Shown: one piece after another, positions 11,263-52,849 of the stretch
How positions within the stretch are numbered: position 1 is the stretch's first letter
How the letters are laid out: the number at the start of each line of letters is the position of its first letter
Assembly: GCA_963706735.1 (NCBI GenBank)
Contig: CAVPNQ010000071.1
Span: 3,563 to 67,562 of the forward strand
Source: an uncultured Planctomycetia bacterium
GTDB taxonomy: Bacteria > Planctomycetota > MHYJ01 > WSZJ01
DNA: 64,000 nucleotides
Direction: 5' to 3'
Notes under the pieces: generated by a model
Told to the model about the DNA's origin: nothing
Seen by the model: the letters and a program-made list of their open reading frames with translations, nothing else
Databases searched by the model: none
Made by a program: the position numbers and the translations under genes

Positions 11263-11362
11263 TTCGCGCAGGTGATCGGGACGAAAAAAAACGCGGGAGG
11301 CGGAAGCGCGCCTGGTGCGCTTCCCCTCCCGCGTTTTTTCTCGTCCCGATCACCTGCGCGAA
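11263..11362. repeat. Long inverted repeat abutting tRNA-Cys 3' end
   Basis: TTCGCGCAGGTGATCGGGACGA...TCGTCCCGATCACCTGCGCGAA, ~45-bp near-perfect arms. Confidence 0.85.
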
Positions 11363-11433
11363 GGCGGGTCCCGGATTTGAACCGGGGAATGAAGGTTTTG
11401 CAAACCTTTGCCTTGCCACTTGGCTAACCCGCC
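11362..11433 (-). tRNA. tRNA-Cys(GCA), canonical
   Basis: GGCGGGTTAGCCAAGTGGCAAGGC AAAGG TTTGCAAA ACCTT...GGTTCAAATCC...CCCGCCT; U73; CCA not encoded. Confidence 0.96.
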
Positions 11434-41383: not shown

Positions 41384-42433
41384 CTACTTCGCGCTCTTCC
41401 ATGTCAGTTCGCGCGTCCACGCCGTGTGCTCCTTCCCATCCAGCTCGACGTGGCACTTGATGAACCAGTTCAGCTTCGGCCCGTCCTGCTTTGGCGCCAG
41501 GTCTATGTTGCGGCCAAGACTGAACGCCACCCGGTTCGAGTCGACGTGGTCGAAGTAGTAGTCCTTCTTCTCGGGCGACACATCCGCGTAGCTGATGTCG
41601 CTCCAGACCCAGCCGCGCCCAGGAAAGTACGTCCTGATCCAGCAGTGATAGCTGGGCTCCTTTTTCGGGTCGTCGAACTTCTCGACGCCGTCCAGGTCCG
41701 CCTTGAGCGCCGTCCCCATCACGAATTGCGTCGGAAGATCCACCACCCGCGCCATCGCCTGGAACAGCGCGTGGAAGTCCGTGCAGTTCCCGGTCTTCGA
41801 GTCCATGCAGTACGTCGCCGATCCCTTTCCCGAGGCCGCCCACTTCGACGGATCCTTCTTCCAGTACTCCGCGTTGTCGATGATGAAGTCGTAGAACTTC
41901 CGGGCCTGGACCTCCGGCGCCTCGACTCCCTTCGCCAGCTCCTTCGCCTTGTCGCGGATGCTGTCGGTCGTCTCACCATTCGGGAACTCCGCCAGCTTCG
42001 CGGCCAGCTGCGCCTTCTCCTCCGCGCTCAGCGCGCGTGCCTTCTCGGCCGGAGGCGCACTCTCCCAGCGCTCCACCGTGAACGTCACCGTCACTTCAAA
42101 GGTCGCAGCCTTCGGCTCCACGATCTCCACGTACAGGAACCGGTTCCCCTCCACCTTCTCGTTCTCGATCCGGTACCCGTCCGGCGCCGTGATCTTCAGG
42201 TCGGAGACCTTCTGAAGCGCTTCCTCCATCGGCAGCTCGAACCATGCCCGAACTTTCCTGGTGCCGGCCGGGATGTCCTTCACGACAAACGAGTCGCGCA
42301 CGACGGCCTTGAGAGGTGCGGCGGAAGGGCGGGCCTCGGCGAGGACGACTGGCGTTCCCTCGCCCGCGGGGGCGCGAAGGGTAAGCGCCAGGGCCAGGCT
42401 TGCAGGGAGGGCGATCAGGGCGAAACGGCGCAT
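41384..42433 (-). CDS. Secreted transglutaminase-like domain protein
   Basis: GNCTDFH, YHCW, WVWSD Cys-His-Asp triad. Confidence 0.9.
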   Translation of the reverse strand: MRRFALIALPASLALALTLRAPAGEGTPVVLAEARPSAAPLKAVVRDSFVVKDIPAGTRKVRAWFELPMEEALQKVSDLKITAPDGYRIENEKVEGNRFLYVEIVEPKAATFEVTVTFTVERWESAPPAEKARALSAEEKAQLAAKLAEFPNGETTDSIRDKAKELAKGVEAPEVQARKFYDFIIDNAEYWKKDPSKWAASGKGSATYCMDSKTGNCTDFHALFQAMARVVDLPTQFVMGTALKADLDGVEKFDDPKKEPSYHCWIRTYFPGRGWVWSDISYADVSPEKKDYYFDHVDSNRVAFSLGRNIDLAPKQDGPKLNWFIKCHVELDGKEHTAWTRELTWKSAK

Positions 42434-46920: not shown

Positions 46921-47442
46921 ATGAGCAACGAATCCACCCTCGATCGCATCCGCCGGCGCTGGACCGCCTGGGTCGCCGCAGGCCGCTCGCGCGACGGCTT
47001 CTCCCGCGTCGTCGCCCGCGGCTTCGATGACGTCCTCGGCTTCTGCGGCGCCAAGTGCTGGGAACGTGTCAACGTCAAGGCGGGCGACGTGCTCTTCATC
47101 GATCGCGATCTCACCGTCCAGTGGTACCGCGACTCGATCCCCAACTTCGAAAGCCTCGTCGAATCCGTCGGCGCGCTCGGCATTCTCGCGGCCGACGGGC
47201 CGCTCCAGGCCACCGACGGTGACGAGACCTGGTCCTACACGCTCGCGCTGATCGCCGAGCGTTCTCTCGCATGGCTCGCGCAGGGCCAGCCCGCCCGCGC
47301 CGAACTGCTCGTCGCCCTCGCCCGCGTCAAGTCCGTCCTCCACAAGCACGACGAAGCCGCCGATCTCCACGCCGAGGCCCGCAAGGCCTGGGACAAGGGG
47401 GCGAAGGCGAAGCGCAAGGGAGCGAAACGCGCCGCGATCTAG
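46921..47442 (+). CDS. Hypothetical protein downstream of SAM-II riboswitch
   Basis: AGGAGG RBS, GC3-rich frame, 173 aa. Confidence 0.8.
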   Translation: MSNESTLDRIRRRWTAWVAAGRSRDGFSRVVARGFDDVLGFCGAKCWERVNVKAGDVLFIDRDLTVQWYRDSIPNFESLVESVGALGILAADGPLQATDGDETWSYTLALIAERSLAWLAQGQPARAELLVALARVKSVLHKHDEAADLHAEARKAWDKGAKAKRKGAKRAAI

Positions 47443-47581
47443 TGGTTCGACACGCTTGATTCCGACGGTTGCGTCCTTCGGACGCAATCCGCGGAATCAA
47501 AGCTGACTCACCACTCGCCGTCGCGGCCGTTCCCGTCTCCCGCTCGCGTTTCCCCATTTCGCTTCCCCAAGGAGGTCACCC

Positions 47582-47857
47582 ATGCCCGTCCTCGAAGTCA
47601 CCAACGAAACGTCCTGTTCCGCCTGCGGCGGTTCCCGCTGCGCGCACGACTCCGTTCTCGCCCGCCTCCTCGGTTGCGAAGAGGCCGGACTGTGCTTCGG
47701 CTGCCTGGCGTTCAGCTTCGGTCTCGAAGAAGAGCGTTTTGCAAATGGGGCTGTCGCGCACCTTCGCAAGAAGTCATGCCTGTGGTTATCCTTCGAGCGC
47801 GCGGCCGGCTGCGGCTGCAGGCTCGACCAGGCCCGGCATGGCGGAGTGAGCGCTTGA
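47582..47857 (+). CDS. Small Cys-rich protein (CxxC...C...CxxC), probable metal-binding
   Basis: AAGGAGG RBS; 9 Cys in 91 aa. Confidence 0.72.
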   Translation: MPVLEVTNETSCSACGGSRCAHDSVLARLLGCEEAGLCFGCLAFSFGLEEERFANGAVAHLRKKSCLWLSFERAAGCGCRLDQARHGGVSA

Positions 47858-47880
47858 AGCGACGCGACCGGAAGAGGGAG

Positions 47881-48039
47881 ATGCCGGATCTGCCCGAACC
47901 CGTCCCGGTGGAAAGCGGGGGGCCGCCCGGCTTCATTGCGCCGATGAACTGGACAGAGGATGAGATCTTCGAGGCGATGAAGGCGTTCGAGGACAGGGTC
48001 CGCCAGGAGCGAGGCTTACCGCCCGGCGATCCGGCGTAG
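47881..48039 (+). CDS. Small hypothetical protein
   Basis: GAGGGAG before ATG; 52 aa. Confidence 0.35.
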   Translation: MPDLPEPVPVESGGPPGFIAPMNWTEDEIFEAMKAFEDRVRQERGLPPGDPA

Positions 48040-48186
48040 TGGTCGTTTCCGGAGAATCGGCCCAGGGAAGGCTCGCGATAAATCGCGGCGAGATTCATAG
48101 GAAAAACCTATCGGACGCATTGCGCAATCTCCCCTAACATCCTCCCGTCCGGGGAAGGACTTTCACACTCACTTTCGGAGGGGAAG

Positions 48187-49485
48187 ATGAAGCAGCTTCG
48201 TACGCTCGCCGTTCTCGCAGCGCTCGCCATCAGCGCAGCCGCCCAGACGCCGACTGACCGTGACAAGGAAATCGACGACCTGAAGAAGCGGCTCGAAGCG
48301 CTCGAGAAGGAGAAGCCCGGCGCTTCCTCCGCGAGCAGCACTCCCACCTGGAAGGACCTCGTCTCCCTCGGCGGGCACCTCAAGTGGTACGGCTTCCTCA
48401 GGCTCGACAGCCACTACACGGATTCCGCCTTCGACAATGCGCGCTTCCCCACCTTCGTCCGCGCGGAGGAGACCATCCCGTTCCTCGCCGGGGTTTCCGC
48501 GCCGGAGCGCAACGACGACAACTTCGTCATGAGCGCGCGCCTGACGCGCCTCGGCTTCGACATCGACTCGGGCAAGATCGCCATGCTCGGCGACGCTTCC
48601 GCGTCCGGTAAGCTCGAAATCGACTTCTTCGCGCTTCCCAGCTCCGAGAGCCGCGCCGTGCCGCGGATGCGGCATGCGTACGGCAAGGTGGGTTGGGACT
48701 GGCTGTACCTTCTGTTCGGGCAGACGTCGGACATGGCGTCGCCGCTGAACCCGAGCCTGAACCCTGACAACGTGCTGTGGAACTGGGGCAACACGGGCGA
48801 CCGCCGCCCGCAGGTCCGGGTGGTCGCCGAACCCAAGGTCGGCGAGAAGCTCAAGTTCTACATCGGCGTGATGGCCGGGCAGGAAGGCGCCATCCGGAAC
48901 GTCGATGTTGACGGGCTTGGCGTGGTCGATGGCGACGACGCCGGCTGGCCGAAACTCGAGGGCCGCCTGGCGATCAGCGTCCAGCACTGGGTCGAAAAGA
49001 AGTGGATCACGCTGGGGCTGTCAGGCATGACGGGCGAGGAGCAGGTTGACGGTGGCGGCGTTGGCGGCCGGCACTTCTTCCGCACCGACATGTGGGCGGT
49101 GGACTTCGAGTTCCCCATCCTCGAGCAGCTTTCGTTCAGGATGGAGTACTGGCGCGGCCGGAACCTCGCGGACATCCGCGGCGGTATCGGGCAGGGCCTT
49201 CTGGCGAGCGGCAGCGATCTCCGCGCGAGCGGAGGCTGGGCGGAGCTGAAGGTGGCGCCGGTGAAGTGGTACGCGGCGACGCTGGGGTACTCGCGCGACA
49301 ACCCGCACGAGAAGAACCTGCCGTTCGGGGCCCGTTCGGAAAACACGGTGTACTACCTCATGAACACGTTCACGTTCGACCCGTTCCTGGTGTCGGTGGA
49401 CATCTCCCACTGGCGCACGGAGTTCGTCGGGCTCAACGCCGGGCGCGCGTGGCGGTACACGCTCACCCTGCAGCTGTCGTTTTAG
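48187..49485 (+). CDS. Outer-membrane porin (DcaP-like)
   Basis: Signal peptide, coiled coil, YGFLRLD, TRLG, PRMRHAY, GQT, RRPQVR, terminal F. Confidence 0.85.
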   Translation: MKQLRTLAVLAALAISAAAQTPTDRDKEIDDLKKRLEALEKEKPGASSASSTPTWKDLVSLGGHLKWYGFLRLDSHYTDSAFDNARFPTFVRAEETIPFLAGVSAPERNDDNFVMSARLTRLGFDIDSGKIAMLGDASASGKLEIDFFALPSSESRAVPRMRHAYGKVGWDWLYLLFGQTSDMASPLNPSLNPDNVLWNWGNTGDRRPQVRVVAEPKVGEKLKFYIGVMAGQEGAIRNVDVDGLGVVDGDDAGWPKLEGRLAISVQHWVEKKWITLGLSGMTGEEQVDGGGVGGRHFFRTDMWAVDFEFPILEQLSFRMEYWRGRNLADIRGGIGQGLLASGSDLRASGGWAELKVAPVKWYAATLGYSRDNPHEKNLPFGARSENTVYYLMNTFTFDPFLVSVDISHWRTEFVGLNAGRAWRYTLTLQLSF

Positions 49486-49537
49486 GCCGGACCGCCTCAT
49501 GTTTCGCCCGGGTCGAGTCCCCTCTCGGTCCGGCCTA

Positions 49538-49590
49538 CCCTGAGCGAGCCCGCCGAAGCCCGCAGGGCGAAGGCGGGGCGAGTCGAAGGG
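49538..49590 (+). repeat. REP-like element, extended variant
   Basis: CCCTGAGCGAG-CCCGCCGAAGCCCGCAGGGCGAAGGCGGG-GCGAGTCGAAGGG. Confidence 0.7.
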
Positions 49591-49706
49591 TGCCGGAGTT
49601 CGGCGTACTGCAGCAGAAGTACGCTCGTGCTGACGTGACCTTCCCTGATGGCCGCGCGTTTCCGCTTCGGCGGGGCGCGCGGCCCCTCGCTCTCCCGGAG
49701 CCCCGG

Positions 49707-50429
49707 ATGGATCCCACGCCCGTCCCCGACGCCGTCTGCGAAGGCGGCGACCTCGATTGCGGAAGCGGTCTCCTGCTGCTGATCCGGGAGGCGATGCAAC
49801 CGCTGCGGGCGGGCGGTGTGCTGGAAGTGCGGAGCCGTGAGATCAGCGTGAAGGAGGATCTGCCGGCGTGGTGCCGGATGGTGGGGCACGAGATGCCCGC
49901 GTCCAGGTCGGGGGACGCAGGGTCCACGAGCTACTTCATCCGCAAGAAGTCGGCGGACGACGGGCTCAAGGCGGACCTCGACAAGGCGCGGTCGTTCGAG
50001 TGGCCGGTGCGGGTGCGTTGGACCGGCGGGATGCAGGCGAAGGCGTTCGCGCGCAACCACTCGTTCGTCGTCGGCCAGCCCGCCAGCTTTGAAACGGCCG
50101 ACCCCGCTCCCGCGGCCGTCGAATACCTGCTCGCATCCCTCGGCGGTTGCCTTGCCGTCGGGTTCCAGTGGCGGGCTTCGCGCAAGGGGCTCGCGGTCCG
50201 GAATCTGGAAGTCGCCCTTCGCGCGAAGGCCGACAACATCCTGGTGTTCCTGGGCGTCGAGGACTCCGGCCACCCCGGCCTCTCGTCGCTCGAGGCCACG
50301 ATCTACGTCGACGCGGACGGGGAGGACGACGAACTCCGCGCGATCTGGGAAGACACGGTGAAGCGTTCGCCCGTCGCGCAAACGCTTCTCCGGGGCGTCC
50401 CGGTCCGGACGACCCTGAGGCGCGCATGA
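49707..50429 (+). CDS. TusA-like sulfur carrier fused to OsmC/Ohr-like domain
   Basis: GDLDCGSG...EDLPAWCRMVGHE (TusA); PAAVEYLLASLGGC...RSPV (OsmC, second Cys replaced by Ser). Confidence 0.87.
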   Translation: MDPTPVPDAVCEGGDLDCGSGLLLLIREAMQPLRAGGVLEVRSREISVKEDLPAWCRMVGHEMPASRSGDAGSTSYFIRKKSADDGLKADLDKARSFEWPVRVRWTGGMQAKAFARNHSFVVGQPASFETADPAPAAVEYLLASLGGCLAVGFQWRASRKGLAVRNLEVALRAKADNILVFLGVEDSGHPGLSSLEATIYVDADGEDDELRAIWEDTVKRSPVAQTLLRGVPVRTTLRRA

Positions 50430-50494
50430 ACCCCCGCCCCCACACCTGAACCCTCTTCCGTTGCGTCGGCCGTGTTGCCGCCGCGTGCGAAGTT

Positions 50495-50587
50495 GGGCCG
50501 GTGGAGGGGACCGGGTCCCCCGCGGTCTGCAAAACCGTCCGGGTGCCGCCTCGCGGCGCTGCTGGGTTCGACTCCTAGGCCGGCCTT
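50495..50587 (+). tRNA. Non-canonical tRNA with tRNA-Sec-like body and GCA (Cys) anticodon
   Basis: Acceptor GGCCGGU/GCCGGCC (+G-U), D stem GGGGAC/GUCCCC, anticodon arm GCGGU-CUGCAAA-ACCGU, 7-8 bp variable arm, T arm CUGGG-UUCGACU-CCUAG, U discriminator. Confidence 0.85.
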
Positions 50588-50599
50588 GAGAGGAATCCC

Positions 50600-51739
50600 A
50601 TGACCAGTCTTCCGGATTTCGCCGTGACGGTCGTCGGCAGCTGGCCGCGCCCCGCGTGGCTGCTGGAGGCGATGAAAAAGAAGCGCGCGGACCTGGCGCG
50701 CTTCCAGGACGACGCGTGCCTCCTGGCGATCAAGTGGCAGGAGGACGCGGGGGTGGACATCGTGACGGACGGGGAGCAGCGGAGGGACAACTTCTATTCG
50801 TTCCTGTGCGACCGGCTGGAAGGGCTGTCGCTGATGACGATGGCGGACCTGCTCGAGTATGTGGAGGACAAGGCGGGGTTCGAGAAACTGCTGTCGGCGC
50901 TGGACGTGCCGGCGTACGCGATCCGGAACCCGACGGTGACGGCGAAATTGAAGGTGAAGAAGCCTCTGGCGATGGAGGACTTCCGCTTCCTGCGGGAACA
51001 CACGAAACGAGCCGTGAAGGTGACCTTGCCCGGGCCGTACCTGCTCTCGCGGTCGATGTGGGTGAAGAAGCTGTCGGAGGGGGCGTACCCGACGAGGGAG
51101 TCGCTGTGCGCGGACATCGTGGCGATCCTGAGGGAGGAGCTGAAGGCGCTGGCGGCGGCGGGCGTGGAGGTGGTGCAGTTCGACGAGCCGGTTCTGACGG
51201 AGCTGGTGTTCGCGGGGAAGTCGGCGACGCGAACGTTCATGTGCGCGGCGCTCGCGGCCAGCGCTTCCCCCGAGAAGGAGCTGGAACTGGCGGTGGACCT
51301 GATCAACCGGGTCGTAGACGGCGTGACCGGGCCGGTGGTCGCGATGCATGTCTGCCGCGGGAACTGGAGCCGGGACGAGGGGGTGCTGCTGCAGGGGGCG
51401 TACGACCCGCTGGTGCCGTGGTTCGCGAAGATGAAGGTGAAGCAGTTCGTGCTGGAGTACGCGACGCCGCGCGCGGGGTCGCTGTCGGCGCTGAAGGGGC
51501 TGGCGCCGGGGTCGATGGTCGGGCTGGGGATCGTGAATCCGCGGACGGACGAGATCGAGGCGGTGGACGGGATCGTGAAGAAGGCGCGGGAGCTGGCGGA
51601 GTTCGTGCCTCCCGGGCGGATTCACCTGAATCCCGACTGCGGGTTCGGGACGTTCGCCGAGCGGCCGATGGCGACCGCGGAAGTCGCCTACAGAAAATTG
51701 TGCGCCCTGGCGCAGGCCGCCCGGGTGCTTCGATCGTAA
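50600..51739 (+). CDS. Cobalamin-independent methionine synthase II family (single-barrel MetE-like) protein
   Basis: VGSWPRP, TDGEQRR, QFDEP, MHVCRGN, LEY, NPDCGF Zn-ligand motifs. Confidence 0.92.
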   Translation: MTSLPDFAVTVVGSWPRPAWLLEAMKKKRADLARFQDDACLLAIKWQEDAGVDIVTDGEQRRDNFYSFLCDRLEGLSLMTMADLLEYVEDKAGFEKLLSALDVPAYAIRNPTVTAKLKVKKPLAMEDFRFLREHTKRAVKVTLPGPYLLSRSMWVKKLSEGAYPTRESLCADIVAILREELKALAAAGVEVVQFDEPVLTELVFAGKSATRTFMCAALAASASPEKELELAVDLINRVVDGVTGPVVAMHVCRGNWSRDEGVLLQGAYDPLVPWFAKMKVKQFVLEYATPRAGSLSALKGLAPGSMVGLGIVNPRTDEIEAVDGIVKKARELAEFVPPGRIHLNPDCGFGTFAERPMATAEVAYRKLCALAQAARVLRS

Positions 51740-51791
51740 GAACCGGCGCGCGGCGTGGGGACGCCGCGATGCCCCTTTACGGGAGGTCGGG

Positions 51792-51940
51792 ATGAAGCGG
51801 TTGTCCTTGCTGGTTGCGGCGGCGTTCGCCGTCGGGTGTGCCGGCGGCGGGGAGACGAAGGAGTCCTCGGACTTCGTCGTGTCGAAGGCCGGGAAGTCGA
51901 AGACGTTCGAGGCGAAGCACGAGCTGAAAGTGACGGTGTC
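51792..51940 (+). pseudogene. Truncated lipoprotein gene interrupted by IS remnant
   Basis: GGAGG RBS, lipobox FAVGC; coding character is lost where the antisense transposase fragment begins. Confidence 0.5.
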
Positions 51941-52080
51941 GTGGCGCAAAAGCGCCGCGAGGACCTGGGTCATCATGTCGTCCAGGGCTTCCTTGTGGTC
52001 GAAGCGGAAATCGGACAGCGTGTGCGGGCAGACCGCAACCCCGCCGCAGATCCAGCTTCCCGACAAGCTCCCACATCTCC
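51938..52080 (-). mobile_element. IS1182-family transposase remnant
   Basis: WICGGVAVCPHTLSDFR...DDMMTQVLAAL and WELVGKLDL fragments. Confidence 0.7.
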
Positions 52081-52094
52081 CGGATTCAGGGCGC

Positions 52095-52210
52095 CAGAGC
52101 CCGTGAAAAAACCTGTGCGTCGGGCGGAGTCGGCCCGCAACAGAAAAACCTCTCAAACCTCCGTCACTGGGCCGACGCAGCCTGACGCGCGGGTTTTTTC
52201 TCGGGCTCTG
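52095..52210. mobile_element. MITE-like 116-bp inverted-repeat element
   Basis: CAGAGCCCG(T/A)GAAAAAACC terminal IRs extending ~31 bp. Confidence 0.6.
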
Positions 52211-52219
52211 AGATCTCCC

Positions 52220-52849
52220 TTACTTCTTCGGCTCGTCCTTCGGCGCTTCCGCAGTGTGACGCTTCTTGATCAGCTCGATCGCCTTCTCCCGGATGTCCTT
52301 GTACGCCATCCCCACTTCCAGCATCCCGAGGTTCTTGTGCGACCGCCCCTCCGTGATCCCGAGCCCTGCCGTGTCCGGCTTGCCTTCGATCACCCCGAGT
52401 TCGAAGTCGATGACTTCCACCAGCTCGTCTTTCGAATCTTTGACCGCCTTGTCCGCCTTCTTCCAGACCTGGAACGACAGCGGCCGCACGATGCCCATCT
52501 CGGGGAACTTGCGCTCCCTCGGGCCCATGTTGTAGCGGACGTCCACGCGGAAGGCGCCGAGGTCGAGGCTCTCCAGCAGAAGCCACGCCAGGTCGTCCTG
52601 CTTCTTGATGAAACACTCCATCGCCTTCTGCGCCGCGGCGTAGCCGTCGTCGAAGCGCTCGAGCTTCATCAGGGTTTGCGCGCGCCGATAGTGCGGCAGG
52701 GGGTCGTCCGGCGTCTTCTTGAGCTGCGCGTCAATCTTGGCAAGCTCGGTTTCGTGCTTCTTCTTGTCCTTCGCCGGGTCTTCGGCGTACGAGCAGGAAG
52801 CGGCGGCCACGGAAAGAAGGGCGGCGAAGGCCAGTCTGTGGAAGATCAT
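52220..52849 (-). CDS. Secreted hypothetical protein with TPR-like helix pair
   Basis: Signal peptide, PDDPLPHYRRAQTL. Confidence 0.75.
   Translation of the reverse strand: MIFHRLAFAALLSVAAASCSYAEDPAKDKKKHETELAKIDAQLKKTPDDPLPHYRRAQTLMKLERFDDGYAAAQKAMECFIKKQDDLAWLLLESLDLGAFRVDVRYNMGPRERKFPEMGIVRPLSFQVWKKADKAVKDSKDELVEVIDFELGVIEGKPDTAGLGITEGRSHKNLGMLEVGMAYKDIREKAIELIKKRHTAEAPKDEPKK

What the first reader, a model, noticed from the sequence alone, without database searches (positions are those of the whole stretch)
50495..50587. Second, non-canonical tRNA-Cys with a tRNA-Sec-like body, embedded in a sulfur/methionine operon
Seen: a complete cloverleaf with a 7-bp (8 with terminal G-U) acceptor stem, a 6-bp D stem with a tiny loop, GCA anticodon, a 7-8 bp variable arm, a canonical T arm and a U discriminator. 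It lies 65 nt after the TusA-OsmC stop and 12 nt before the MetE-like ATG. A normal tRNA-Cys already exists at 11362. Known: long D stem plus long V arm are tRNA-Sec hallmarks, while GCA plus U73 are CysRS identity elements; selC*-type tRNA-Cys species are described in some anaerobes. Inference: a specialised tRNA that EF-Tu may handle poorly, used as a Cys/sulfur carrier, as a scaffold for on-tRNA amino-acid conversion, or as a regulatory leader.
Basis: partly seen in the sequence, partly recalled or inferred. Interest (0 to 1): 0.92.

Follow-up and report, generated by a model that had tools for sequence, protein, structure and literature searches.

The report
Selenocysteine-like cysteine tRNA in selenium operon
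This is a real, conserved second cysteine tRNA built like a selenocysteine tRNA, of a kind already described in other bacteria, and in this planctomycete lineage it sits inside selenium-handling gene clusters, which fits a role in putting cysteine where selenocysteine is normally inserted.

Summary
ARAGORN calls a 93-nt tRNA-Cys(GCA) at 50495-50587. Its best Rfam match is tRNA-Sec, at 41 bits against a cut-off of 47. Comparison of 54 distinct relatives supports the cloverleaf: 97.8% of cells pair, 21 of 30 pairs show compensatory changes, and 0 of 500 shuffles match. The alignment moves the ends to 50496-50586. The acceptor stem is 7 bp and U73 is base 50586.

The tRNA belongs to the published selC*/tRNAReC kind, a Sec-like tRNA-Cys. 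The host is a Planctomycetia MAG with selA, selB, selC and selD. Three things may be new:
- It has a 7/5 acceptor/T helix with a 3-nt connector.
- One relative carries a UCA anticodon.
- It recurs inside yedE / TusA / DsrE / LysR_Se selenium clusters, once 14 nt upstream of a methyltransferase gene with an in-frame UGA.

The neighbourhood is therefore selenium rather than sulfur/methionine. Charging, carrier and expression are untested. Most metagenomic copies lie in unrelated contexts.

Verdict: a new variant of a known kind, of moderate interest.

The parts
50496..50586 (+). tRNA-Cys* (GCA anticodon, U73): 7-bp acceptor, 3-nt connector GGA, 6-bp D stem with 3-nt loop, 5-bp anticodon stem, 8-bp V arm, 5-bp T stem
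   Evidence: ARAGORN. Rfam tRNA-Sec 41 bits. Own covariance model R1 94.5 bits. Covariation. Ends set by alignments A1/A2/A3.
50495..50495 (+).
   Evidence: In alignment A1 this column is G only in G000 and C or U in 6 of the 7 other sequences. G003 is 100% identical to G000.
50430..50495 (+). Leader that travels with the tRNA; contains CACCTGAAC at 50443-50451
   Evidence: CACCTGA lies 30-57 nt upstream in 8 of 60 distinct flank rows (shuffle mean 0.29, max 3). A near-identical leader occurs in G005 in a different gene context. Ordinary tRNA genes of G000 instead show TTGAC-N17-TATAAT-like sites.
50430..50603 (+). 174-nt segment (leader + tRNA + Shine-Dalgarno-like GAGAGGA + ATGA) present here and in G003 but absent from a syntenic relative; bounded by ATGA at 50426-50429 and 50600-50603
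   Evidence: BLASTN and junction sequences against L040. In L040 the TusA-OsmC stop overlaps the MetE-like start (ATGA).
49707..50429 (+). TusA-like + OsmC-like fusion protein (240 aa)
   Evidence: Pfam OsmC 51.4 bits; TusA 23-26.9 bits, below its cut-off of 28.6. Best NCBIfam match is 'OsmC-related (seleno)protein' NF041052 at 36.8 bits, below its cut-off of 95. GC3 frame profile.
50600..51739 (+). MetE-like (cobalamin-independent methionine synthase catalytic domain) protein, 379 aa
   Evidence: Pfam Meth_synt_2 86.6 bits. NCBIfam methionine-synthase models all below their cut-offs. Fused to a TusA domain in G015.
48187..49485 (+). 432-aa protein of unknown family that recurs upstream of the tRNA cluster (G003, G006, G053)
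   Evidence: tblastn. No family above threshold.
51759..51977 (+). Fragment (residues 7-79) of the transglutaminase-like gene that follows MetE-like in G003; the cluster is broken here in G000
   Evidence: tblastn 63% identity over 73 aa. Pfam Transglut_core on the G003 protein.

Best explanation
Window 50496-50586 encodes a selC*/tRNAReC-type tRNA: a cysteine tRNA (GCA anticodon, U73) carried on a selenocysteine-tRNA-like body.

Shown here: it is a conserved, structurally constrained gene in a selenocysteine-using Planctomycetia lineage, and it is repeatedly embedded in selenium-handling gene clusters.

Inferred:
1. The single CysRS charges it with cysteine.
2. The Sec-like body keeps it out of general elongation and hands it to SelB.
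3. It reads SECIS-programmed UGA codons as Cys, which would back up selenoprotein synthesis when selenium is short.
4. It is made from the same transcripts as selenium uptake and trafficking genes (YedE, TusA, DsrE), so that backup and uptake rise together.

Steps 1-3 are taken from work on relatives in other phyla. Step 4 is my inference from gene order.
For: Structure:
- Best Rfam family is tRNA-Sec for this copy (41 bits). All 7 relatives scanned also match it (37.4-60.5 bits), and 4 of the 7 pass the 47-bit cut-off.
- GCA is present in 65 of 66 aligned rows and U73 in 65 of 66. A published passage names U73 and GCA as the main CysRS identity elements (PMC5389517).
- It meets the operational tRNAReC definition of PMC13582414: at least 80 nt, GCA or UCA anticodon, discriminator U.

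Selection on the fold.

Sec machinery in G000: selC 74.5 bits, selB 310.9, selA 552.1, selD 365.9 with one in-frame TGA. There is one CysRS.

UGA link: G085 carries the same body with a UCA anticodon and U73.

Context:
- G085: LysR_Se-like regulator, then YedE > tRNA > TusA.
- G180: tRNA > TusA > YedE.
- G015: YedE > TusA > DsrE > tRNA > TusA-MetE-like fusion.
- G006: TusA > DsrE > tRNA.
- G003 and G000: TusA-OsmC > tRNA > MetE-like.
- Metagenome locus L204: tRNA > YedE.

- YedE, the TusA+DsrE protein YedF, and LysR_Se are the candidate selenium genes of PMC5322559 (passages).
- In G053 the tRNA lies 14 nt upstream of an ArsM-like gene. Its in-frame TGA aligns with a Cys of solved arsenite methyltransferases, and homology continues past the TGA.

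Precedent: passages say the D. nigrificans Sec-like tRNA-Cys decodes UGA as Cys, is not used by EF-Tu and is delivered by SelB (PMC11415595; PMC13582414).
Against: - The conserved acceptor/T helix has 12 layers (7/5), as in ordinary EF-Tu substrates, not the 13 of this genome's tRNA-Sec. That SelB needs the longer helix is recalled knowledge, not tested here.
- No second SelB or CysRS was found.
- Only 1 of 54 metagenomic loci has YedE nearby. The others sit beside unrelated genes (PAS kinases, GNAT, DUF3179, porins and more), though many of those contigs are short.
- In Armatimonadota, 4 of 6 related long tRNA-Cys genes lie in an ordinary Pro-Gly-Arg-His-Cys-Arg-Lys tRNA operon with no YedE or TusA nearby.
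- Co-occurrence with tRNA-Sec is not enriched: 6 of 9 carrier genomes against 30 of 47 others in the class.
- Transcription is not shown. One contig from a library only guessed to be RNA spans the tRNA and the MetE-like 5' end.
- This copy scores below Rfam's tRNA-Sec cut-off.
- Charging and carrier were not tested.
Confidence: 0.6

Rival explanations
1. It is an extra elongator tRNA-Cys. CysRS charges it, EF-Tu carries it, and it reads ordinary UGC/UGU codons. The Sec-like D arm and long V arm are inherited baggage.
For: - 12-layer 7/5 acceptor/T helix, canonical T loop, and GG in the D loop.
- Related Armatimonadota genes sit inside a housekeeping tRNA operon.
- A BLAST look found a canonical tRNA-Cys in only 1 of the 4 Armatimonadota genomes whose long tRNA-Cys lies in that operon (G242), and none in G224. 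This look has weak sensitivity.
Against: - G000 already has a canonical tRNA-Cys at 11362-11433 and a third in the C121 array.
- The UCA-anticodon relative with the same body would be a general opal suppressor if EF-Tu carried it.
- The Sec-like arms are kept by compensatory change: 5 of 6 D-stem pairs and 7 of 7 V-arm pairs.
- Repeated linkage to YedE/TusA/DsrE.
- Published relatives are reported not to use EF-Tu (passage).
Confidence: 0.17
2. It is a selenocysteine tRNA with a cysteine anticodon. SerRS would charge it through the long V arm, SelA would convert Ser to Sec, and it would insert Sec at chosen UGC/UGU codons, as reported for Aeromonas tRNA-Sec(GCA).
For: - Sec-like D arm and long V arm.
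- A passage in PMC5389517 says a long V arm with G73 or U73 suggests serine identity in allo-tRNAs.
- The Aeromonas precedent is quoted in PMC11415595.
- Selenium gene context.
Against: - U73 is near-invariant here (65 of 66 rows), whereas 43 of the 46 UCA tRNA-Sec genes printed from the same phylum carry G73. The other three show A, C and this family's U.
- The helix has one layer fewer than the resident tRNA-Sec.
- GCA plus U73 are the CysRS elements.
Confidence: 0.1
3. It has a non-translational role. One form is a processing or regulatory element in the operon transcript: RNase P/Z cuts would uncouple upstream and downstream genes. The other is a tRNA scaffold on which the neighbouring TusA/DsrE/MetE-like proteins act.
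For: - It lies 6-38 nt upstream of the next start codon in six loci (window, G015, G053, L204, G085, G180).
- A TusA-MetE-like fusion sits beside it in G015.
- Presence/absence polymorphism exactly at a translationally coupled junction.
Against: - The anticodon and discriminator are conserved as an aminoacylation identity set across 54 distinct sequences. A mere processing signal would not need that.
- MetE-like orthologues lack the tRNA in 24 of 25 close loci.
- Most copies lie outside such operons.
Confidence: 0.08
4. It is a decaying pseudo-tRNA or a remnant of a mobile element's attachment site.
For: - Indel polymorphism against L040.
- A 5'-truncated copy in G059.
- Two inverted copies on metagenome contig L217.
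Against: Full-length copies keep 97.8% pairing with many compensatory changes. No integrase was seen among the neighbours annotated.
Confidence: 0.03

Closest known systems
selC* tRNA-Cys / tRNAReC (Mukai et al. NAR 2017, PMC5389517, passages read; Vargas-Rodriguez et al. RNA Biol 2018, not held, known only through passages in PMC13582414 and PMC11415595)
   Same: - tRNA-Sec-like body found through the tRNA-Sec covariance model.
- GCA (or UCA) anticodon, U73 and a long V arm.
- The host has the full Sec machinery.
   Different: - The conserved acceptor stem is 7 bp, not 8, and the anticodon stem is 5 bp.
- 7/5 helix with a 3-nt connector, rather than the described 8/4 with a bulged A51a.
- No selB* or cysS* downstream.
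- The host phylum, Planctomycetota, is not among the phyla named in the passages read.
- Embedded in yedE/TusA/DsrE clusters.
- The closed supplements of PMC5389517 may show other architectures and hosts.
Bacterial tRNA-Sec (selC, Rfam RF01852)
   Same: 6-bp D stem with a tiny loop, long V arm, and a purine at position 8 followed by two linker bases. It is the best-scoring Rfam family.
   Different: GCA instead of UCA, and U73 instead of G73. It has one nucleotide fewer in the 3' acceptor strand: 12 layers against 13 in G000's own tRNA-Sec.
Aeromonas tRNA-Sec with GCA anticodon (Mukai et al. 2016; only quoted)
   Same: Sec-like body with a cysteine anticodon.
   Different: That tRNA inserts Sec at Cys codons. 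Here the discriminator is the cysteine-type U73.
allo-tRNAs (PMC5389517)
   Same: 12-bp acceptor/T helix, Sec-like D arm, long V arm.
   Different: allo-tRNAs are 8/4 or 9/3 with a predicted serine identity and varied anticodons. This family is 7/5 with a fixed GCA and U73.
YedE / YedF / LysR_Se candidate selenium genes (Lin et al. GBE 2015, PMC5322559, passages read)
   Same: The neighbours are YedE (above the NCBIfam cut-off), TusA-like and DsrE-like proteins (the two YedF domains as separate genes), a LysR_Se-like regulator, and a transglutaminase-like protein listed there as a STRING partner of YedF.
   Different: No tRNA gene is mentioned in the passages read. Here YedF is split, and in places fused to OsmC-like or MetE-like domains.

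Membership tests
selC* tRNA-Cys / tRNAReC | Cysteine (GCA) or opal (UCA) anticodon | tested here: met
   GCA in the window copy. GCA in 65 and UCA in 1 of 66 aligned rows.
selC* tRNA-Cys / tRNAReC | U73 discriminator | tested here: met
   U at 50586. U in 65 of 66 rows and C in one, G180.
selC* tRNA-Cys / tRNAReC | tRNA-Sec-like body, at least 80 nt with a long V arm, picked up by the tRNA-Sec covariance model | tested here: met
   91 nt. RF01852 is the best family at 41 bits, below the 47-bit cut-off. 4 of 7 relatives pass the cut-off.
selC* tRNA-Cys / tRNAReC | Acceptor stem longer than 7 bp (8/4 or similar), as described in PMC5389517 | tested here: not met
   7 conserved pairs. The 8th G-U pair occurs only in G000 and G003. 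Position 8 is an unpaired purine.
selC* tRNA-Cys / tRNAReC | Anticodon stem longer than 5 bp | tested here: not met
   5 pairs are supported. The flanking C26 has no partner.
selC* tRNA-Cys / tRNAReC | Host encodes selA, selB, selC and selD | tested here: met
selC* tRNA-Cys / tRNAReC | selB* and/or cysS* downstream (delta-proteobacterial subgroups only) | tested here: not met
   One SelB and one CysRS in G000. The second SelB-like hit is CysN. No second SelB above the cut-off in 5 other carrier genomes.
selC* tRNA-Cys / tRNAReC | Charged by CysRS; delivered by SelB; UGA read as Cys | not testable with these tools
   Needs biochemistry. Only indirect support from the UCA variant and the selenium context.
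tRNA-Sec (RF01852) | UCA anticodon, G73, 13-layer acceptor/T helix, score above the gathering cut-off | tested here: not met
   GCA, U73, 12 layers, 41 bits against 47. The true selC is at G000:C41:31585-31677.
Ordinary class I tRNA-Cys (RF00005) | Matches the general tRNA model at its gathering score; short V region | tested here: not met
   No RF00005 match at gathering. The V arm is 6-9 bp.
allo-tRNA | 8/4 or 9/3 acceptor/T composition | tested here: not met
   7/5.
YedE/YedF selenium gene cluster (context) | YedE family transporter beside TusA-like and DsrE-like proteins | tested here: inconclusive
   - Met in relatives: YedE TIGR04112 at 390-469 bits in G015, G085 and G180; TusA and DsrE above Pfam cut-offs.
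- Not met in the window itself: only a sub-threshold TusA domain, an OsmC domain and a MetE-like gene, and no YedE was found in G000, which is 82.6% complete.

The most novel reading that the evidence does not exclude
In Planctomycetota the Sec-like tRNA-Cys is a built-in part of selenium-acquisition operons (yedE-tusA-dsrE, with its own travelling leader motif). The cell would then raise its Cys-for-Sec fallback together with selenium uptake when selenium runs short. A bolder form is that the TusA/DsrE/MetE-like neighbours act on the charged tRNA itself.
Probability: 0.3. Interest if true: 0.7.

Novelty: new variant of a known kind. Interest (0 to 1): 0.55.

Why it matters
Sec-like cysteine tRNAs are one of the few natural cases of programmed codon-anticodon mismatch and of a second elongation-factor client, and their biological purpose is still unclear. 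A lineage in which the tRNA gene sits inside selenium uptake and trafficking operons, and once directly upstream of a UGA-containing gene, gives a concrete and testable hypothesis for when the tRNA is used: selenium limitation. It also offers a natural 7/5 variant for asking what SelB and EF-Tu actually read in the tRNA body. For annotation, it warns that UGA codons in such genomes may be read as Cys as well as Sec.

Tried and rejected
- Single-sequence folding gave a non-cloverleaf MFE with z -0.75 and was not used.
- Listing ORFs with TGA read through was uninformative in this GC-rich DNA.
- The 432-aa upstream protein shows no similarity to the alginate-export porins found upstream in other loci (E 1.1), so the outer-membrane-uptake idea was dropped.
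- MetE-like as an obligate partner is rejected: only 1 of 25 close orthologue loci has the tRNA within 6 kb.
- SelB* is rejected. The second SelB-like hit in G000 is CysN. The 400-436-aa hits in other carriers (150-200 bits) look like EF-Tu by length, which I did not verify.
- Sequencing runs: 20 of 22 listed rows hold part of the stretch. After laying 4 runs, one 446-nt contig from a library only guessed to be RNA spans 50464-50892, and a DNA contig spans 50494-50946. Neither shows transcription, ends or processing.
- Co-occurrence with tRNA-Sec is uninformative because Sec use is common in the class.
- The promoter scan found no sigma-70-like site in 47400-52400.
- The search for a canonical tRNA-Cys in Armatimonadota genomes was by BLAST only and is inconclusive.
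- Literature: the 2018 tRNAReC paper is not held, and supplements are closed. Figures S1 and S8-S13 and Table S1 of PMC5389517 may already show 7/5 forms or planctomycete hosts. The claim that the yedE linkage and planctomycete hosts are not in print rests only on searches and on the passages read.

Full report
**1. The observation.** ARAGORN finds two tRNA-Cys(GCA) genes in the window. One is an ordinary 72-nt gene at 11362-11433 (-). The other is a 93-nt gene at 50495-50587 (+). At Rfam gathering thresholds only the ordinary one is reported. With E-value thresholds, the finding aligns end to end with the tRNA-Sec model RF01852 at 41.0 bits (cut-off 47, E 4.6e-7). Thermodynamic folding of the single sequence is uninformative: the MFE fold is not the cloverleaf and the z-score is -0.75. 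The case therefore rests on comparison with relatives.

**2. Relatives and structure.** BLAST over 101 related genomes found full-length copies in 9, counting G000. ARAGORN calls all of those scanned tRNA-Cys(GCA). Aligning them shows three things:
- The following U (50586) is invariant.
- The conserved gene is therefore 50496-50586.

Its parts, in order:
- a 7-bp acceptor stem, GGCCGGU/GCCGGCC
- a 3-nt connector (purine, any base, A)
- a 6-bp D stem with a 3-4-nt loop that keeps GG
- one unpaired base
- a 5-bp anticodon stem with loop CUGCAAA
- a 6-9-bp variable arm
- a 5-bp T stem with loop UUCGAYU
- discriminator U73

On 8 sequences, 97.5% of cells pair, 9 pairs show changes on both sides, and 0 of 500 shuffles reach this. 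I built covariance model R1 from this alignment and made one pattern scan of metagenome contigs, which gave 54 loci. Together these produced 66 aligned rows, 54 of them distinct. In that set 97.8% of cells pair, 21 of 30 pairs carry double changes, 0 of 500 shuffles match, and slid controls pair at only 40-57%. The gene is real and its fold is under selection.

The genome's own tRNA-Sec (G000:C41:31585-31677, 74.5 bits) also has ten bases before its D stem. It differs in having one more base in the 3' acceptor strand, which gives a G8·G mismatch and 13 stacked layers. The Cys form has 12 layers.

**3. Host and distribution.**
- Close MetE-like loci carry titles of Planctomycetia MAGs.
- G000 is a 5.3-Mb, 82.6%-complete MAG. 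It has selC, selB, selA, and a selD with an in-frame TGA, and one CysRS. Its second SelB-like hit is CysN.
- In the class, 9 of 56 genomes score 91-104 bits with R1, and every other match scores 66 bits or less. All 21 of those lower matches that I fetched are UCA tRNA-Sec genes.
- A sample of 151 genomes of the phylum added four cases. G112 has GCA and U73. G180 has GCA and C73. G085 has the same body with a UCA anticodon and U73. G059 has a 5'-truncated remnant.
- Of the 46 UCA tRNA-Sec genes printed, 43 have G73; the other three show A, C and this family's U (G085).
- A sample of 121 Armatimonadota genomes also holds long GCA/U73 tRNA-Cys genes.

**4. What it is.** Published passages define the kind.
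- selC* tRNA-Cys genes were false positives of tRNA-Sec searches. They carry U73 and GCA or UCA, the main CysRS identity elements, and occur in genomes with complete Sec machinery (PMC5389517).
- They were later named tRNAReC. PMC13582414 recognises them operationally as tRNAs of at least 80 nt with GCA or UCA and a U discriminator.
- A review states that the D. nigrificans member decodes UGA as Cys, is not used by EF-Tu and is delivered by SelB (PMC11415595).

The window's tRNA meets the operational definition. It departs from the 2017 structural description, which gives longer acceptor and anticodon stems and an 8/4 form with selB*/cysS* neighbours in delta-proteobacteria.

**5. Neighbourhood.** In the window the order is:
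- a 432-aa protein of unknown family
- a TusA-OsmC fusion (49707-50429)
- the tRNA
- a MetE-like gene (50600-51739)
- a truncated transglutaminase-like gene

. No + strand terminator-like site lies between the first and last of these.

Other carriers hold a permuted version of the same gene set:

| Genome / locus | Gene order |
|---|---|
| G003 | TusA-OsmC > tRNA > MetE-like > transglutaminase-like > TusA > DsrE > HEAT-repeat protein |
| G006 | TusA > DsrE > tRNA > HEAT-repeat protein |
| G015 | transglutaminase-like > YedE > TusA > DsrE > tRNA > a TusA-MetE-like fusion starting 6 nt after the tRNA |
| G053 | 432-aa protein > tRNA > ArsM-like methyltransferase, with YedE and a transglutaminase-like gene nearby |
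| G085 (UCA form) | a LysR_Se-like regulator divergent from YedE > tRNA > TusA |
| G180 | tRNA > TusA > YedE |
| L204 (metagenome) | tRNA > YedE > peroxiredoxin |

YedE scores 390-469 bits against TIGR04112, whose cut-off is 200. According to PMC5322559 (passages), YedE is a putative selenium transporter. The same paper describes YedF as a TusA/SirA-like plus DsrE-like protein linked to SelD, names LysR_Se as a selenium regulator, and lists a transglutaminase-like enzyme among YedF's STRING partners.

In G053 the methyltransferase gene has an in-frame TGA. It aligns with a Cys of solved arsenite methyltransferases, and homology continues for more than 20 residues past it. A hairpin lies 18 nt downstream. 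Reading that hairpin as a SECIS rests on recalled features. The best NCBIfam models for this gene are selenoprotein forms of ArsM, all below their cut-offs.

**6. Evidence against over-reading the context.**
- Of the 54 metagenome loci only L204 shows YedE. The recurrent neighbours elsewhere are unrelated, although many of those contigs are short.
- Four of six Armatimonadota loci place the long tRNA-Cys in a plain tRNA operon.
- MetE-like orthologues have the tRNA in only 1 of 25 close loci.
- L040 is about 85% identical across the region and lacks exactly 174 nt: the leader, the tRNA, a Shine-Dalgarno-like GAGAGGA and ATGA. In L040 the TusA-OsmC stop overlaps the MetE-like start.

The leader moves with the tRNA. 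G005 has a near-identical leader in a different gene context. The motif CACCTGA lies 30-57 nt upstream in 8 of 60 distinct flank rows, against a shuffle mean of 0.29. Ordinary tRNA genes of G000 instead show TTGAC-N17-TATAAT-like sites.

**7. Mechanism.**
- Shown: a conserved Sec-like tRNA with cysteine identity marks, in a Sec-using host, with a UCA sister form, repeatedly inside selenium gene clusters.
- Inferred from relatives: charging by CysRS, delivery by SelB, and reading of SECIS-linked UGA as Cys.
- Inferred from gene order: co-expression with selenium uptake genes, so that the fallback rises when selenium is scarce.

The main doubt is the 12-layer helix, which resembles an EF-Tu substrate. 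Whether SelB or EF-Tu carries this tRNA is open. The rivals are a plain elongator, a Sec-inserting tRNA with a Cys anticodon, a non-translational element, and a remnant. They are weighed in their own sections.

**8. Novelty and verdict.** The kind is known. I found three aspects not described in the text I could read:
- the 7/5 architecture with an unpaired purine at position 8
- the planctomycete hosts
- the embedding in yedE/TusA/DsrE operons next to a UGA-containing gene

That statement rests on searches. The 2018 paper and all supplements were unavailable. I rate it a new variant of a known kind with interest 0.55.

Noticed in passing
G000:C121:39116-44217 (outside the window): An array of about 36 tRNA genes in 5.1 kb, covering most amino acids and including a third tRNA-Cys. 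It may be a mobile or phage-derived tRNA island.
   Followed up: no
G000:C96:40838-41030 (L002 1501-1691): A class II tRNA with anticodon UUA, which would read the ochre stop codon. It scores 56.4 bits on the general tRNA model and 48.3 on the tRNA-Sec model. An adjacent 95-97-nt tRNA-like gene is called Pro(tgg).
   Followed up: partly
L109 745-1476 (G053): An ArsM-like methyltransferase gene 14 nt downstream of the tRNA. Its in-frame TGA (1339-1341) aligns with a Cys of solved arsenite methyltransferases, and a hairpin lies 18 nt downstream. It is a likely selenoprotein gene.
   Followed up: yes
L107 4423-5994 (-) (G015): A TusA-like domain fused to the MetE-like enzyme in one reading frame, starting 6 nt after the tRNA. 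The fusion links the two proteins that are separate in the window.
   Followed up: partly
L160 1501-1580 (G059:C57:32113-32192): A 5'-truncated copy of the tRNA. The anticodon arm, V arm, T arm and 3' acceptor strand are intact, but the 5' acceptor and D arm are replaced.
   Followed up: no
L217 2215-2305 (+) and 3690-3779 (-): Two inverted copies of the tRNA on one metagenome contig, flanking fragments of a 390-aa protein family that also follows the tRNA in G036, G055 and L206.
   Followed up: no
L262-L265 (Armatimonadota G212, G228, G242, G255): A long GCA/U73 tRNA-Cys inside a Pro-Gly-Arg-His-Cys-Arg-Lys tRNA operon. Three of the four have C instead of U at position 33 of the anticodon loop.
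   Followed up: partly
G000:C41:31585-31677 (L001 1501-1593): The genome's true tRNA-Sec has a G·G mismatch at the 8th acceptor position. Many tRNA-Sec genes of the class show the same bases there.
   Followed up: partly
window 41387-42273 (-): A second, diverged transglutaminase-like gene, 36% identical to the one in the G003 cluster, about 8 kb upstream of the tRNA.
   Followed up: no
G000:C3:680-1462 and C60:31978-32760: Identical Thr-Tyr-Gly tRNA clusters with identical upstream sequence on two contigs. This is either an assembly duplicate or a true repeat.
   Followed up: no
L141 440-1678 (G112): Downstream of the G112 copy lies a double-cubane-cluster anaerobic reductase (NF040772, 408 bits). 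It is related to the 2-hydroxyacyl-CoA dehydratase-type genes that PMC5322559 lists beside selenium genes.
   Followed up: no
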